A DNA stretch of 64,000 nucleotides from positions 64,001 to 128,000 of IMG/VR virus record IMGVR_UViG_3300035696_000004; one strand, written 5' to 3'. The DNA comes from a virus. Taxonomy: Duplodnaviria; Caudoviricetes. Each line of letters opens with the position of its first letter. Position 1 is the stretch's first letter. Shown here in pieces: positions 10,374 through 14,710 of this stretch. The notes under the pieces were generated by a model. It was not told where the DNA came from, ran no database searches, and saw nothing but the letters and a program-made list of their open reading frames with translations. The translations under genes were made by a program, and so were the position numbers.

Positions 10374-10655
10374 CTACCGCTCCGTATGGCTCTTGACAGC
10401 GACGGCTGCACTGACACTCAGGATCACACTGGACGATCCTGTTGCACCAGCAGCAAAACCAACGTAGTTGAAGCTCCCAGTCTTCAGGGTGCTATACACC
10501 GTCCCGAAGATAAACAATAGTGCGACAGCAATGCAAAACGGATACCCTACGACCCGTGCAGGATCGTAATCCCCATGCATAGTCGTGGCGCAGTCGTTGA
10601 TGACTTTATACAGGATCATTTTGAAACGATCCGTATCGATACCAAACAATTTCAT
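10374..10655 (-). CDS. Small membrane protein
   Basis: 93 aa with hydrophobic segments; coupled to AAA ATPase gene by ATGA overlap. Confidence 0.55.
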   Translation of the reverse strand: MKLFGIDTDRFKMILYKVINDCATTMHGDYDPARVVGYPFCIAVALLFIFGTVYSTLKTGSFNYVGFAAGATGSSSVILSVSAAVAVKSHTER

Positions 10656-11938
10656 GTTGATCCTTTCGTCACGAGTTCCCCGATGAAGGCAGCAGGGTCA
10701 TTTCGATGCTTCATGAATTTGGCTTGCAAGGTGCTTCCAGGGCAGTCTTCAAAAACCGCACCCTCAGGAACAACGCAGCCCGGAAATACCAGATCGATGT
10801 AACGACGAATCGCTTCATCATCCAGAGGCAGGATTTCGAACTGATGGTCGCATCGACCATCCCGCAAGATATTGTCAGCGATGATTTCTTTTCGATTGGT
10901 GGTGAGAAAGATCACTGTTCGATTGAGTTCTTGGACACCATCCAGCGTATTCAAAATTGTCGTTAACGAAACGCCATCGTCGAATAAGCTCCTGACCGAT
11001 TCTTTCCCGTAAGGATCGTAGGTCGTGATCGCATCACTATCAGGGTTATGAACAGCTGGAATTTTAACTTGGGCTCCGTTCTTGTGGGTAGCGGGGCAAG
11101 AGTCAAAATCTTCAATAGCCACGATACCGCCATACGCCATGGTCATCAGTTTCGGGAACATGGTGTCCGAGCAGGTATTCAGATTGACCGCGTACACGGA
11201 TCGATCGAAGTGCCCTGCGATACTTTTGATCAACGACGTCTTACCGGTTCCTGGAACACCGTATAAAAGGATGACGAGCTTGTACGGAATCCCCCGAAGC
11301 CGATACCAGGATTCACTGGCGTAGAATTCTTCGATCAGCTTGACGATGTCTTCTTTAGTGGTGTCCCGTGTCACAATGGTCGATAGTGGTCGCTTAGGAG
11401 CACCGACAGCAGCCGCGAAATTATAGCCTTCATTGGTGTGCACATAGGAGAGATCTTTCGCATATCGCCACCGGAAAGCCTTTGTCAAGTCCTCCATGAC
11501 TTTCTTCGATCGTGTCAGGCAGTAAATGACACTTTCCATCTTTTCTTTTTCCGTCCCTGTCGAAGCTAGACGTGAATTGACGACCCAGAAGAATCGTTTT
11601 TTGTAAAAGAAGAAGTGCGTGCCGTATCCGGGCACCAAGATACCTTCTTCGAGACCATAGTCTCCTTTGAAAAAGAATTCACGACTCAACGCTAGCAACG
11701 TTTTGTCTTTGACCCATATGTTGAATTCCTTGAACTCACGTTCAAACTCCGAGGTCGAATTATTGAGCATGATCGTGGACGTACAGGCTTTGAAGATCGT
11801 GCGTCCCAGTTGATTCGGTACGCTACGCAGAGCCCAGGTCAAAATACCACCGATCCAGATCCCGATAGCCCCCGATAACATCGGGTTGGATTTAGTGAGT
11901 GCGTAGAAGGATTGCATGAAAGAAAGTGGTGTACTCAT
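10652..11938 (-). CDS. BCS1-like membrane-anchored AAA+ ATPase
   Basis: N-terminal TM helix; RGIPYK...LLYGVPGTGKT (Walker A); VAIEDFD (BCS1-type Walker B); TILNTLDG; FLTTN; RDGRCD arginine finger. Confidence 0.85.
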   Translation of the reverse strand: MSTPLSFMQSFYALTKSNPMLSGAIGIWIGGILTWALRSVPNQLGRTIFKACTSTIMLNNSTSEFEREFKEFNIWVKDKTLLALSREFFFKGDYGLEEGILVPGYGTHFFFYKKRFFWVVNSRLASTGTEKEKMESVIYCLTRSKKVMEDLTKAFRWRYAKDLSYVHTNEGYNFAAAVGAPKRPLSTIVTRDTTKEDIVKLIEEFYASESWYRLRGIPYKLVILLYGVPGTGKTSLIKSIAGHFDRSVYAVNLNTCSDTMFPKLMTMAYGGIVAIEDFDSCPATHKNGAQVKIPAVHNPDSDAITTYDPYGKESVRSLFDDGVSLTTILNTLDGVQELNRTVIFLTTNRKEIIADNILRDGRCDHQFEILPLDDEAIRRYIDLVFPGCVVPEGAVFEDCPGSTLQAKFMKHRNDPAAFIGELVTKGST

Positions 11939-11999
11939 GTTGCCCCCTTGATGGTTTCATAGAAGAACACCGACAAATAAAAAAAGAAAGAGGCGTCAT

Positions 12000-12023
12000 A
12001 GAGGAGACCCGAAGGCCTCCTCT
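12000..12023 (-). terminator. Intrinsic terminator
   Basis: GC stem with UUCG loop on minus strand, followed by T-rich tract. Confidence 0.7.
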
Positions 12024-12032
12024 AGACTGAGA

Positions 12033-12455
12033 TCAGGAGTCGTCACTTTCCAGTTTTACGACACTTTTAGGAAAGGGTGGATCACCTTCATTCTTTATTT
12101 CGAATACACCTTTCAGTTCGTGCAGGGGTGATGCACCCAGGAGATGCAAAATGGTGTACCAATCACCATCTCGCTCATCCCCGTGAACTCGCCATCCTTC
12201 ACGGGTTCGAATAAAGCACGCAACCGTCTTCATGTCATCATCGCGGATGACTAAGTACCGCCGCCCAAATAGTTCAAACTGCTGAATGTTTCCGCCGAGC
12301 CGTTCTACTTGGTCCATCATGGCGATAAAGGCAGCCCGAGAATTCAACTTGATGCTCTCGATCCGCGCTGCATTCTTGAACGATTTGTAGATGACGTAGA
12401 TCAGCAGGGCGTCGCTGATCCCGAGACAAATCATCAGAAAGGATACGATATTCAT
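12033..12455 (-). CDS. Membrane-anchored hypothetical protein
   Basis: 140 aa, N-terminal TM helix. Confidence 0.65.
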   Translation of the reverse strand: MNIVSFLMICLGISDALLIYVIYKSFKNAARIESIKLNSRAAFIAMMDQVERLGGNIQQFELFGRRYLVIRDDDMKTVACFIRTREGWRVHGDERDGDWYTILHLLGASPLHELKGVFEIKNEGDPPFPKSVVKLESDDS

Positions 12456-12467
12456 TTTCCGTCCTTT

Positions 12468-13442
12468 TTAAGGGTGTGACCAGGCATTCAAATAGTCACG
12501 ATCGCGGAAGGGTTCCACCAAGAACGCTTCATTAAACTGCTCAGCCTGCAAGAGGCGTTCACGAATCCTCCAGAGTTCTTCGGCCTGACACGCATGACCT
12601 TTCTGACCAAAGACATCCGAGAAGCCGGTTGCTTTTTTCAGAATTTCTTGGAGTTCGGGGTTTTCGTAGATGTAGAGTATCCAAAGATGCTCGTAATACT
12701 TCCGGCATTCCTGGATATTGATCGGGCATTTTCCTTTGGCTTCTTGCCAAGAGAGTCCGGTCTGACCTCCTTCAAACACTTTGTAGCGCTGATAGAGTGT
12801 TTCGATCGACATATTCCCATACTTCTTGACCCGTGCGTAAAACGCGCTGAGTCGACGATCCCCTTTACTGCTGCACTCGAGATACGGTGCCTCACCAAAA
12901 CGCAACATGTCATTTCCTTTCTTTACTAAGCGATCCGCAATCGCCACAATTTGATCATCTGTTAAGTCGTCGACATCCATCCCCGGTGGCAAGATATGGA
13001 ATCGATCAACGTGGTGCGCTAGTAGAAAACCCCCTGCATCCCCGTCGCACATAGAGAGCGTGCGGTTAGGAATCGCTCTAAACCATTGGGTGAGGTTTAG
13101 AGGGTCTGCCCCAAATACGGCAACAGCGTTATAGCCCAGCCGTTTTAGCCGATTTGCATCGAATATCCCCTCCTGAACAAATAAGGGCTTTTTCGGATCG
13201 TACGTTTCAAGACCCCACATACCGAGCTCAACATTATGCCATCGATACCGAGAGAGGTAGGTGTAGTATTTCGCCAATTTAGGGTTGTCGGGATTGTGTT
13301 TTGGATAGGACGGGTTGTAAACCTGGAAACCAATCAATTGTCCCGATAGATTCCAAACCAAAAAGGTTGCATCCACATCCGTCACTGTCAATCCAGGGTA
13401 ATCGTCAGGATTGAGATGTCTGGAGAGGAGGTGTTGATGCAT
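12468..13442 (-). CDS. Toprim domain fused to NADAR/DarG1-like domain
   Basis: N-half: LFVQEGIFDA and DGD Toprim motifs; C-half: LECSSKGDRRLSAF..SIETLYQRYKVFEGG..FSDVFGQKGHACQA, matching DarT1-associated NADAR pattern; internal AAAGGA RBS + ATG at 12908. Confidence 0.75.
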   Translation of the reverse strand: MHQHLLSRHLNPDDYPGLTVTDVDATFLVWNLSGQLIGFQVYNPSYPKHNPDNPKLAKYYTYLSRYRWHNVELGMWGLETYDPKKPLFVQEGIFDANRLKRLGYNAVAVFGADPLNLTQWFRAIPNRTLSMCDGDAGGFLLAHHVDRFHILPPGMDVDDLTDDQIVAIADRLVKKGNDMLRFGEAPYLECSSKGDRRLSAFYARVKKYGNMSIETLYQRYKVFEGGQTGLSWQEAKGKCPINIQECRKYYEHLWILYIYENPELQEILKKATGFSDVFGQKGHACQAEELWRIRERLLQAEQFNEAFLVEPFRDRDYLNAWSHP

Positions 13443-13902
13443 GTTCGAGTTCTTTCTTTCTTTTGGCTCTGAGAGCCTGTCGGGTGATCGACCGGCAATA
13501 GGGGCAATATCGGCGCGTCTGATTCCCTTTAGGCATACGCAAACGATGTCCTCGTTTGCAATAGTCTTTGGGACAAGTCCGACCTAGTCGCCATGTCAGA
13601 TTATCGAGCGTGATCGGCTGGTCCAGATCAACGATGGTTCCGACCTCACCTTTCACGGGCGGCCTGACAAACGTCGACAACATCAGAGCATAGAGCATCT
13701 TGCGACGATAGACACCATCGATGCAGAGGCTTACACCAGGATAACCCTGGGTGTCATACGTCACCTTGAGTATTTTACCGGGGAGCATCTGCCCGTGTCG
13801 ACCGATGTGTTCCTTTGAACGGAAGTTCCCTAAGTTGGAGATTTCGTAAATTCCTTCACTCCCATATGCGGGTTTCCAGATTTCATTCATATCGAGTGTC
13901 AT
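13405..13902 (-). CDS. NUMOD4 protein with degenerate HNH region and C-terminal Cys/His cluster
   Basis: EIWKPAYGSEGIYEISNLGNFRS = NUMOD4; HNH histidines absent (IVDLDQPITLDNLTW); CKRGH...CPYC. Confidence 0.75.
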   Translation of the reverse strand: MTLDMNEIWKPAYGSEGIYEISNLGNFRSKEHIGRHGQMLPGKILKVTYDTQGYPGVSLCIDGVYRRKMLYALMLSTFVRPPVKGEVGTIVDLDQPITLDNLTWRLGRTCPKDYCKRGHRLRMPKGNQTRRYCPYCRSITRQALRAKRKKELEHASTPPLQTSQS

Positions 13903-13934
13903 TCAGTGTTCCAAATAAAAAGTATGGATGGGTC

Positions 13935-14248
13935 ATAAGGAGCAGCCCGAAGGCTGCTCCCGTAGTATCACGTAAAGAGGCACTCCATTGCATCGTATTC
14001 CTCCACTGGCCATCTGGATCGATACGATGCAACAGGCTGCTTCCTAAAGCCAAGCTATTCGGGTGCGGCAACGGACCCGATGGCCAGACTCGTGTAGAAA
14101 ACAACTTCTCGGGGATAGCGCCCACGAGCGTACGATTAAGTCAGAAGCGGTCTCGCTACAAACCACTCCGACACCTCTGATGATACATCGTGAGGTCTCA
14201 TTTGCCGCTGCCACCGCCGCATCTCGGGCAAAATGGCGCGCGGCGCTT
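13935..14248 (-). ncRNA. Unassigned highly structured ncRNA (about 310 nt) downstream of hammerhead cleavage site
   Basis: No credible ORF; successive helices found by eye, including an 11-bp perfect stem (14032-14022/13998-13988) and a 9-bp loop-distal pairing. Confidence 0.65.
13939..13960 (-). terminator. Terminator-like hairpin closing the ncRNA
   Basis: GGAGCAGCC-UUCG-GGCUGCUCC followed by UUAUG, the tail seen after other hairpins in this genome. Confidence 0.75.
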
Positions 14249-14309
14249 GACGCCACCAGATACGATGGCGTTTCGTTCCTTTATACGTGGCCGGAACTCA
14301 TCAGAAGCG
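14244..14309 (-). ncRNA. Type I hammerhead ribozyme
   Basis: CGCUU-CUGAUGA-GUUCC(13-nt loop)GGAAC-GAAA-CGCCAUC(GUAUCU)GGUGGCG-UC|AAGCG: full core and all three stems; cleavage predicted between 14249 and 14248. Confidence 0.93.
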
Positions 14310-14368
14310 TAGCCTTGTGTCTGTGCACATCATTGCGTAGCTGTGTAAAAAACCACTCGCCGGACCTA

Positions 14369-14710
14369 CTACCCACGATCAATTTCGATCGTGGACGGGA
14401 TCACGCCATTCCCTTGGCCGAGGTAGCGAACGAGAGCGAATTCGATCGACTTGAGCGGGTTCGGATCGGATTCATCGATCAGGATGCGGTATACTTGTCG
14501 TTTCGGGGTATCCGGTTCGGCGTCAGCGGTTTGCTCGTCGCCGGTGCCCAGGATGGTCTTGACGATTTCTTTGGCACGTTCTTTGATCGTGCTGGAAATC
14601 TGTTCGTCGAGGGCGCCGAGGTCGTCCGCGATGTTCCGGACCCTAATCAGGGCGTCCAGCTCGACTTCCAGGGCTTCGAATTTTTGTTTGAGGGGTACGT
14701 GTACTTGCAT
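14369..14710 (-). CDS. Hypothetical protein
   Basis: MQVHVPLKQK..., coiled-coil N-terminus; last ORF before the ribozyme. Confidence 0.65.
   Translation of the reverse strand: MQVHVPLKQKFEALEVELDALIRVRNIADDLGALDEQISSTIKERAKEIVKTILGTGDEQTADAEPDTPKRQVYRILIDESDPNPLKSIEFALVRYLGQGNGVIPSTIEIDRG

What the first reader, a model, noticed from the sequence alone, without database searches (positions are those of the whole stretch)
12468..13442. Toprim domain fused in frame to a DarG1/NADAR-like domain with its own internal start
Seen: residues 1-178 carry primase-type Toprim motifs (EGIFD, DGD); residues 179-324 carry LECSSK..LSAF..SIETLYQRYKVFEGG..FSDVF..CQA. An AAAGGA RBS sits 6 nt before the in-frame ATG at 12908. 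Known: NADAR enzymes remove ADP-ribose from guanine; DarG1 is the antitoxin of DarT1, and orphan phage NADARs (AdfN) neutralise DarTG1. Inference: an anti-DarTG1 enzyme made in two isoforms, one tethered to a ssDNA/fork-binding module. It could instead be a recent stop-codon loss.
Basis: partly seen in the sequence, partly recalled or inferred. Interest (0 to 1): 0.72.

Follow-up and report, generated by a model that had tools for sequence, protein, structure and literature searches.

The report
Primase-core fused to DarG1-like NADAR
A giant nucleus-forming phage from peat has one gene that joins a small primase-type domain to an enzyme predicted to strip ADP-ribose from DNA; the enzyme type is a known phage counter-defence, but this fusion was found in no other protein searched.

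Summary
Window 12468-13442 (minus strand) is one open 324-codon frame.

- **N-terminal domain (residues 1-178):** a DnaG/T7-type primase core with an intact Toprim E and DxD. It has no zinc finger.
- **C-terminal domain (residues 179-324):** a NADAR fold closest to the DarT1-associated antitoxin DarG1. It scores above the Pfam PF22397 cut-off and gives Z 10.7 to structure 8BAT. The catalytic E214, K221 and D276 are present. DarG1's N-terminal extension is absent.
- **Junction:** the joint runs from the natural end of the first family to the natural start of the second. M179 aligns with residue 1 of most of the roughly 70 free-standing or N-terminal homologues listed. It is preceded by AAAGGA plus 6 nt, which is this phage's own preferred ribosome-binding site.
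- **Uniqueness:** no other protein carries both domains, in 5.8 billion clusters and in the best 150 of 1.84 billion representatives.
- **Not an assembly error:** contigs from peat runs of two further studies carry the identical junction.
- **Host genome:** it is a chimallivirus, with chimallin and PicA homologues. It also encodes an AdfM-like macrodomain.

Best reading: an orphan anti-DarT1-type DNA de-ADP-ribosylase was welded to a neighbouring gene by a single small mutation. A free 146-aa form is probably still made. Fork tethering and two isoforms remain untested.

The same stretch was also flagged from an overlapping window (e1-5376359).

The parts
12468..13442 (-). Whole fusion ORF, 324 aa plus stop (P0001)
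   Evidence: The identical sequence spans the junction in contigs of peat runs from two further studies.
12909..13442 (-). N-domain, residues 1-178: a DnaG/T7-type primase RNA-polymerase core with Toprim (E91; D133-G-D135). It has no zinc ribbon and no helicase-binding domain.
   Evidence: phrog_849 gives 2e-28. The family profile A5 hits the DnaG catalytic core 3B39/1EQN at 3e-5. The AF2 model has pLDDT 92.5. Foldseek matches 1DDE at 1.7e-7, T7 gp4 primase 1NUI and T4 gp61 8DVF.
12471..12908 (-). C-domain, residues 179-324: a minimal DarG1-type NADAR core. Residues 300-324 are a low-confidence tail.
   Evidence: PF22397 scores 34.8 bits against a cut-off of 27. phrog_9995 gives 4e-32 from its position 1. 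Profiles hit G. lovleyi NADAR 8BAT at 4e-4. The AF2 model has pLDDT 91. Foldseek gives 8BAT at 5e-4. VIA-align gives Z 10.7 to 8BAT and 8.4 to YbiA, with the next hit at 2.3.
12906..12920 (-). Retained gene-start signal inside the ORF: AAAGGA (12920-12915), spacer AATGAC (12914-12909), ATG of M179 (12908-12906)
   Evidence: It matches the phage's own RBS consensus. M179 aligns with residue 1 of free-standing homologues.
12801..12803 (-). Codon of E214, equivalent to E88 of E. coli C7 NADAR and E36 of AdfN
   Evidence: Alignment to 8BAT. Nearly invariant in the family. Mutational data are in PMC11543638 and PMC11257639.
12780..12782 (-). Codon of K221, equivalent to K95 of C7 NADAR and K43 of AdfN
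12615..12617 (-). Codon of D276, the Asp of the last strand. This is the DarT1-associated/BC4488 signature, equivalent to D171 of C7 NADAR.
   Evidence: Our FSDVF aligns to FTDIEF of 8BAT. Nearly invariant in the family.
13405..13902 (-). Upstream neighbour: a NUMOD4/HNH-type homing-endonuclease-like ORF (165 aa). Its 3' end overlaps the fusion ORF's start by 38 nt.
   Evidence: It is context, not part of the fusion protein.

Best explanation
This is a genuine single gene of a nucleus-forming jumbo phage (chimallivirus, 219.8 kb, from peat).

**Shown:**
- It joins a complete Toprim-only primase core, of a family that is normally a free 166-200 aa protein, to a complete minimal NADAR core, of a family that is normally a free ~120 aa protein.
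- The link between them is about 5 residues.
- The NADAR part has the YbiA/NADAR fold and the E-K-D catalytic set of DarT1-associated NADARs. It lacks their N-terminal extension.

**Inferred from family knowledge:**
- The NADAR part hydrolyses ADP-ribose from guanine in DNA. It would act as an orphan antitoxin against DarT1-like DNA ADP-ribosyltransferases.
- It would complement the phage's AdfM-like macrodomain, which is the anti-DarT2 type.

**Inferred from the junction:**
- Two adjacent genes were fused by one small mutation that removed the stop from the frame. This was either an indel in the last few Toprim codons or a point change in a stop codon.
- The downstream gene's AAAGGA ribosome-binding site and ATG survive intact. 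A free 146-aa NADAR is therefore probably still translated alongside the 324-aa fusion.

Whether the fused state itself is advantageous is open.
For: - **Frame and motifs:**
- **NADAR membership:** Pfam above the gathering score; profile hit to 8BAT; AF2 pLDDT 91; Foldseek 5e-4; Z 10.7 over 123 aa, with the next unrelated hit at 2.3.
- **Catalytic residues:** E214, K221 and D276 align to residues shown essential in E. coli C7 NADAR and AdfN (PMC11543638 section 12; PMC11257639).
- **Published activity:** every phage NADAR tested removed G-ADPr and countered DarTG1 (PMC11257639).
- **Primase core:**
- **End-to-start junction:** free Toprim homologues end at our residues ~165-178, and NADAR homologues start at M179.
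- **RBS statistics:**
- **Out-of-frame TAA and TGA just before the ATG:**
- **Fusion present in contigs from three peat runs of three studies (one may be the source):**
- **Chimallivirus status:** chimallin at 8e-21 and PicA at 3e-44.
- **AdfM orthologue:** 33% identity, 1e-25.
- **NADAR is old in this lineage:** a related 221-kb jumbo phage has the closest NADAR (65% identity) about 4 kb downstream of dCTP deaminase, as here, but without a Toprim domain.
Against: - No enzyme assay, no expression data and no known host, so no DarT1 can be pointed to.
- The fusion is a singleton with no diverged relatives. Nothing shows it has persisted under selection.
- NADARs also act on other substrates, such as riboflavin intermediates and cytidine-ADPr (PMC11125620, PMC12945103).
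- The upstream start at 13442 has no Shine-Dalgarno match and lies inside the HNH ORF. The long form may therefore be poorly translated.
- The Toprim-only family is not a core chimallivirus gene. PhiKZ has none, and group 1 jumbo phages are reported to lack DnaG-type Toprim (PMC7824862).
Confidence: 0.6

Rival explanations
1. The fusion is a neutral accident. The fused state is a very recent read-through with no function of its own. The NADAR works as it did when free, mostly from the internal start. The Toprim part is unaffected or even impaired.
For: - No other fused protein was found.
- All three peat runs carry 100% identical sequence, so there is no evidence of persistence.
- One mutation suffices for the fusion.
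- The linker is only about 5 residues.
- Both families fuse promiscuously to many partners.
Against: - Both halves keep all family-invariant residues.
- The N-terminal side of the NADAR core is where DarG1 and other homologues carry their add-ons (PMC11543638). A fusion there is at least positioned to matter.
Confidence: 0.25
2. The protein is not anti-DarT. It belongs to RNA or nucleotide repair, with NADAR removing ADP-ribose (or a related adduct) from RNA, tRNA or metabolites, and the Toprim part acting as a nuclease or RNA-end processor.
For: - Elsewhere the same Toprim-only family is fused to CCA-adding enzyme plus HD (three proteins), and to Mom, HAD and ParB_N domains. One protein carries GNAT plus a borderline Arr-type ADP-ribosyltransferase hit.
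- The family sits beside an RNA ligase and a tRNA nucleotidyltransferase, and inside T5-like tRNA regions.
- Jumbo-phage NADAR and Macro domains have been proposed to act in NAD-dependent RNA repair (PMC7824862).
Against: - This genome has no tRNA genes and no CCA-adding enzyme.
- The NADAR is specifically of the DarT1-associated sequence family with the Asp signature.
- The N-domain matches primase cores, not RNase M5 or OLD.
- In 44-kb coliphages the family sits in the replication module next to the helicase.
Confidence: 0.12
3. The fusion is an assembly or sequencing artefact. A homopolymer indel in the A-rich junction falsely joined two genes.
For: The junction is purine-rich with A-runs. 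A one-nucleotide error would bring TAA or TGA into frame.
Against: Contigs from the two runs that are not the possible source (of three peat studies) span the junction with 0 mismatches and 0 gaps (X2 record 3 covers 11900-13145; X3 record 9 covers 12868-13018).
Confidence: 0.03

Closest known systems
DarG1 / DarT1-associated NADAR antitoxins (Pfam PF22397; G. lovleyi NADAR 8BAT; E. coli C7 NADAR)
   Same: Same sequence family, above the Pfam cut-off. Same fold (Z 10.7). Same catalytic Glu, Lys (+7) and last-strand Asp. The LE-SSK and CQA motifs are shared.
   Different: The beta1-beta2-alpha1 N-terminal extension, proposed to bind ssDNA, is missing: the match starts at profile position ~50 of 212. 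No DarT was detected in the genome, though the control search was also silent. The protein is phage-encoded and fused to a Toprim domain.
AdfN (T4 gp30.3) and other orphan phage NADARs (Bas32, Bas60), PMC11257639
   Same: Phage-encoded NADAR without a cognate toxin and without the DarG1 N-terminal extension. This is the predicted way of working: enzymatic removal of G-ADPr from phage DNA.
   Different: The AdfN clade has His in the last strand, whereas this one has the DarG1-type Asp. The published phage NADARs are single-domain proteins. This one is fused and untested.
phrog_9995 / Rhizobium phage 16-3 p043 and ~120-aa homologues
   Same: Direct homologues of residues 179-300 at 50-65% identity. 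They start at the residue equivalent to M179.
   Different: They are free-standing or carry the NADAR core at the N-terminus of other fusions, such as DprA-like and DUF4326. All are annotated hypothetical, one is mis-annotated as a Dda-like helicase, and none has been assayed.
AdfM (phiKZ gp104), the nuclear anti-DarT2 macrodomain of chimalliviruses, PMC13309987
   Same: A DNA de-ADP-ribosylase counter-defence in a nucleus-forming phage. This genome has its own AdfM orthologue.
   Different: Macrodomain fold and thymidine-ADPr specificity. It is a single domain imported via PicA. Import of the Toprim-NADAR protein is unknown.
T7 gene 4 (gp4A/gp4B)
   Same: A primase-containing ORF with an internal in-frame RBS and start that yields a second, shorter protein. 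This comparison rests on my own knowledge.
   Different: In T7 both products are documented and share the helicase. Here the shorter product is only predicted and would lack the primase part entirely.
DnaG / T7 gp4 / T4 gp61 primase catalytic cores
   Same: The fold and the Toprim acidic residues of the N-domain.
   Different: No zinc-binding domain in the protein or anywhere in the genome. No DnaB-type helicase was found. Primase activity is unproven.

Membership tests
NADAR superfamily, DarT1-associated subfamily (PF22397) | Scores above Pfam's curated gathering threshold | tested here: met
   32.4 bits for the full protein and 34.8 bits for residues 179-324, against a cut-off of 27. PF08719 was not reported even at E<=10.
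NADAR superfamily, DarT1-associated subfamily (PF22397) | YbiA-like fold: a helical core flanked by two small sheets | tested here: met
   AF2 pLDDT 91. 8BAT gives Z 10.7 with rmsd 3.3 over 123 aa. YbiA 2B3W gives Z 8.4. The next hit is at 2.3. Foldseek probability is 1.00.
NADAR superfamily, DarT1-associated subfamily (PF22397) | Catalytic Glu and Lys seven residues apart, plus Asp in the last strand (E88, K95 and D171 in E. coli C7) | tested here: met
   E214, K221 and D276 align with SVESAFQSSK and FTDIEF of 8BAT. They are nearly invariant in 60 homologues.
NADAR superfamily, DarT1-associated subfamily (PF22397) | N-terminal beta1-beta2-alpha1 extension with a basic surface | tested here: not met
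   The Pfam match begins at profile position 50-51 of 212. The 8BAT alignment begins at chain residue ~73-75. The Toprim domain sits there instead. The closest homologue, P0003, does match from profile position 25.
NADAR superfamily, DarT1-associated subfamily (PF22397) | Genetic linkage to a DarT1 toxin gene | tested here: inconclusive
   No PF14487 match in the 219.8-kb genome, but the control genomes were silent too. The neighbours are an HNH-like ORF, a membrane protein and a BCS1-like AAA ATPase.
NADAR superfamily, DarT1-associated subfamily (PF22397) | Guanine-ADP-ribose glycohydrolase activity and rescue from DarT1 | not testable with these tools
   Needs enzyme and toxicity assays.
AdfN clade (T4 gp30.3-like phage NADARs) | His replaces the last-strand Glu/Asp | tested here: not met
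   The residue is Asp (D276). The criterion comes from PMC11125620 and PMC11543638.
DnaG-type primase | Toprim fold with a conserved Glu and a DxD | tested here: met
   E91 and D133-G-D135. Matches to the DnaG, T7 and T4 primase cores.
DnaG-type primase | Zinc-binding domain for template recognition | tested here: not met
   The protein starts at the RPD. No PF01807 match anywhere in the genome, while the control rang in 10 of 14 genomes.
DnaG-type primase | Partner replicative helicase (DnaB type) or helicase-binding domain | tested here: inconclusive
   No PF03796 match in the genome. Other helicase families were not searched.

The most novel reading that the evidence does not exclude
In a phage that replicates inside a protein 'nucleus', a DarG1-type NADAR has been welded to a replication-type Toprim protein. 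The Toprim part would stand in for DarG1's missing DNA-binding extension, or would serve as a piggy-back ticket through the PicA import pathway. The retained internal start would supply a free cytoplasmic form. Together these would give a two-form, two-compartment defence of phage DNA against guanine ADP-ribosylation, working beside nuclear AdfM.
Probability: 0.15. Interest if true: 0.8.

Novelty: new variant of a known kind. Interest (0 to 1): 0.5.

Why it matters
Orphan phage NADARs (AdfN) and the nuclear macrodomain AdfM are recent discoveries. The published NADAR counter-defences are all single-domain proteins.

This gene adds three things:
- It places a DarG1-type NADAR in a chimallivirus that also has AdfM. 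That suggests nucleus-forming phages guard against both DarT classes.
- It reveals a large, unstudied family of ~120-aa 'mini-DarG1' proteins in phages.
- It offers a natural experiment on what an N-terminal DNA-handling domain adds to a NADAR core.

If the fused form is better targeted to ssDNA, to the fork or to the phage nucleus, that would bear on two open questions: the unknown role of DarG1's own extension, and how imported cargo evolves in chimalliviruses. If the fusion is neutral, it is still a clean snapshot of gene fusion by a single mutation, with the old start signal still in place.

Tried and rejected
- **Nucleotide and locus searches.** Megablast of 4 kb against 50,697 phage records gave no match. 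The search for related loci in viral contigs found no relative.
- **RNA features.** Rfam and tRNA scans of the window found nothing. aragorn on the whole genome found 0 tRNAs.
- **Single-sequence searches.** phmmer of either domain against the PDB gave nothing useful; profiles were needed. NCBIfam gave nothing for the ORF. PADLOC gave only weak DnaG-like stretches of DRT models.
- **Combined alignment.** A joint full-length alignment (A3) misaligned the Toprim homologues at 8-17% identity. It was discarded and the domains were folded separately, so no full-length model exists.
- **Complex prediction of N-domain versus C-domain.** No verdict (score 0.00). This is not evidence either way.
- **Expression.** No RNA holder was listed for this stretch.
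- **Split-primase idea.** I considered that the HNH ORF had split a longer primase. I rejected it because free homologues are 166-200 aa and begin at the same HLLSR N-terminus, the upstream frame shows nothing recognisable, and there is no zinc ribbon in the genome.
- **Apparent homology upstream of M179.** tblastn alignments seemed to extend into residues 150-178 in some phages. Pairwise alignment shows only noise there.
- **Related phage.** I tried to search the rest of the related 221-kb contig for a Toprim gene, but the record is not held. Its full split state is therefore known only for the 10.6-kb locus.
- **Other priming and tRNA enzymes.** AEP Prim-Pol and CCA-adding enzyme were not found in the genome.

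Full report
**What is there**

The flagged coordinates hold one uninterrupted minus-strand ORF, from ATG 13442 to stop 12470-12468, encoding 324 aa. The in-frame ATG of M179 is at 12908-12906. It is preceded by AAAGGA (12920-12915) and a 6-nt spacer.

The window is part of a 219,772-bp virus record with direct terminal repeats. It is found in peat metagenomes.

**N-terminal domain (residues 1-178)**

PHROGs places residues 2-176 in phrog_849, 'DNA primase' (E 2e-28), matching positions 150-343 of a 435-position profile. A profile of 50 homologues hits the DnaG catalytic core at E 3e-5 (3B39, 1EQN). The AF2 model (pLDDT 92.5) matches DnaG cores (1DDE, 1.7e-7), the T7 gp4 primase fragment, T4 gp61 and Twinkle. 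The Toprim acidic residues E91 and D133-G-D135 are conserved.

Homologues are mostly free 166-200 aa proteins. They begin with the same HLLSR motif and end at positions equivalent to our residues ~165-178. The ATG at 13442 is therefore the real start, not the GTG chosen by the gene caller (P0002, 305 aa).

There is no zinc ribbon in the protein or the genome. No DnaB-type helicase and no AEP primase were found either. Whether this minimal core primes DNA synthesis is unknown.

Elsewhere the family sits in mixed contexts:
- next to a helicase in 44-kb coliphages;
- overlapping a tRNA nucleotidyltransferase gene in a Vibrio phage;
- inside the tRNA region of T5-like phages;
- next to an RNA ligase;
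- fused to CCA-adding enzyme plus HD, Mom, HAD or ParB_N domains, and in one protein to GNAT plus a borderline Arr hit.

**C-terminal domain (residues 179-324)**

Pfam PF22397 (NADAR-DarT1) scores 32-35 bits against a cut-off of 27. phrog_9995 matches from its first position at M179. Family profiles hit the G. lovleyi DarT1-associated NADAR 8BAT at E 4e-4 to 1e-3. These alignments pair SIE..YQ..K with SVESAFQSSK, and FSDVF with FTDIEF.

The AF2 model (pLDDT 91) gives the following:
- 8BAT at Foldseek E 5e-4;
- 8BAT at Z 10.7 with rmsd 3.3 over 123 aa;
- E. coli YbiA at Z 8.4;
- the next hit at only 2.3.

E214, K221 and D276 correspond to E88, K95 and D171 of E. coli C7 NADAR, which are needed for guanine de-ADP-ribosylation and DarT1 rescue (PMC11543638). 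E214 and K221 also correspond to E36 and K43 of AdfN (PMC11257639). The Asp marks the DarT1-associated subfamily, whereas the T4 AdfN clade has His (PMC11125620).

The match starts at profile position ~50. The beta1-beta2-alpha1 extension of DarG1, proposed to bind ssDNA, is therefore absent, as it is in most phage NADARs (PMC11257639).

**The junction**

About 70 of the best 150 representative hits match only residues 179-~300, and most of those start at their own residue 1. The rest match only residues 1-~175. None matches both domains.

No fused protein appears among 88 hits in the 178-567 aa range, apart from the window's own product. None of the 447 phage records covers 80% of the query. 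The fusion is therefore unique so far.

It is not an assembly error. Contigs from peat runs of two further studies span the junction with no differences.

AAAGGA followed by 6-9 nt is this phage's preferred ribosome-binding site, found at 13 of 69 long-ORF starts. Only 5 of 301 internal in-frame ATGs carry any 5-mer SD match. Just upstream of the ATG, a TAA lies in the +1 frame (14 nt before it) and a TGA in the +2 frame (1 nt before it). This is the normal stop-RBS-start architecture seen, for example, at the next gene junction (12455-12470).

A single indel in the last few Toprim codons would create the fusion. So would a point change such as TAA to AAA. The two halves have similar GC content (0.48 and 0.49), within one standard deviation of the genome mean of 0.51.

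**Genome context**

The genome encodes homologues of phiKZ chimallin (gp54, E 8e-21) and PicA (gp69, E 3e-44), and a tubulin. It is a chimallivirus.

It also encodes a 152-aa macrodomain protein that is 33% identical (E 1e-25) to phiKZ gp104, or AdfM. AdfM is the nuclear anti-DarT2 enzyme (PMC13309987).

The closest NADAR homologue (P0003, 65% identity) lies on a related 221-kb jumbo-phage contig. It sits about 4 kb downstream of a dCTP deaminase gene, as here. It has no Toprim domain, and it carries a 75-aa N-terminal extension that partly matches the DarG1 extension.

The NADAR gene therefore looks old in this lineage, and the Toprim fusion looks lineage-specific. PhiKZ has no homologue of the Toprim family. 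PhiKZ-like jumbo phages are reported to lack DnaG-type Toprim domains (PMC7824862).

**Interpretation**

The best-supported reading is that the NADAR part is an orphan antitoxin-like DNA de-ADP-ribosylase aimed at DarT1-type toxins. It was fused by one mutation to the preceding Toprim gene, and the old start signal remains available for a free form.

Three things remain untested:
- that the fusion tethers the enzyme to ssDNA or the fork, or carries it into the phage nucleus;
- that the fused state is selected, since the singleton status makes a neutral recent accident a serious rival;
- that the target is DNA rather than RNA, since the RNA-repair associations of the Toprim-only family leave a smaller possibility of an RNA-directed role.

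I score it as a new variant of a known kind, of moderate interest.

Noticed in passing
G000:C1:148878-149222 (-), outside the window; locus L015:1447-1905: A 152-aa macrodomain protein, 33% identical (E 1e-25) to phiKZ gp104 (AdfM), the nuclear anti-DarT2 enzyme. This phage therefore carries both classes of DNA de-ADP-ribosylase.
   Followed up: partly
G000:C1:181184-182509 and 170875-172278, outside the window (L012, L013): Homologues of phiKZ chimallin (gp54) and of the nuclear importer PicA (gp69). A PhuZ-like tubulin lies at about G000:192355-193371. The genome is a nucleus-forming chimallivirus.
   Followed up: yes
window 13405-13902 (-): A NUMOD4/HNH-type homing-endonuclease-like ORF (165 aa) whose end overlaps the Toprim-NADAR start by 38 nt. 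The fusion ORF's own start has no Shine-Dalgarno match, perhaps because this insertion displaced it.
   Followed up: partly
window 13902-14369: A gap of about 470 nt with no convincing ORF on the coding strand. Earlier notes of this scan place a hammerhead ribozyme and a ~310-nt structured RNA here. Rfam at gathering threshold reported nothing.
   Followed up: no
proteins P0121, P0150, P0183, P0164, P0194, P0171, P0169; loci L005, L009, L010: The ~175-aa Toprim-only 'primase' family is repeatedly fused or adjacent to other functions: CCA-adding enzyme plus HD, RNA ligase, tRNA gene clusters, Mom, and GNAT plus an Arr-like ADP-ribosyltransferase. Its usual annotation as a DNA primase may be too narrow.
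   Followed up: partly
L018:2504-2887 (Erythrobacter phage XM05) and L019:2501-2857 (Rhizobium phage RHph_Y5A): Free-standing mini-NADAR homologues are mis-annotated as 'Dda-like helicase' in XM05 and left unannotated just upstream of the DNA polymerase gene in RHph_Y5A.
   Followed up: no
proteins P0004, P0007, P0010, P0011, P0012, P0089: The mini-NADAR core is a promiscuous module. It is found at the N-terminus of fusions to DprA-like (PF02481) and DUF4326 domains and to unknown domains, and C-terminal to DUF488.
   Followed up: partly
window 10652-11938 (-) and 12033-12455 (-): Downstream neighbours are a BCS1_N plus AAA ATPase (phrog_7485, 4e-105) and a 140-aa protein with a hydrophobic N-terminus and no family match.
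   Followed up: no
L014:3489-4002 (Erwinia phage pEa_SNUABM_48): The Toprim-only homologue in this 294-kb Erwinia phage matches in two pieces, and only a 95-aa CDS is annotated. It may be frameshifted or interrupted.
   Followed up: no
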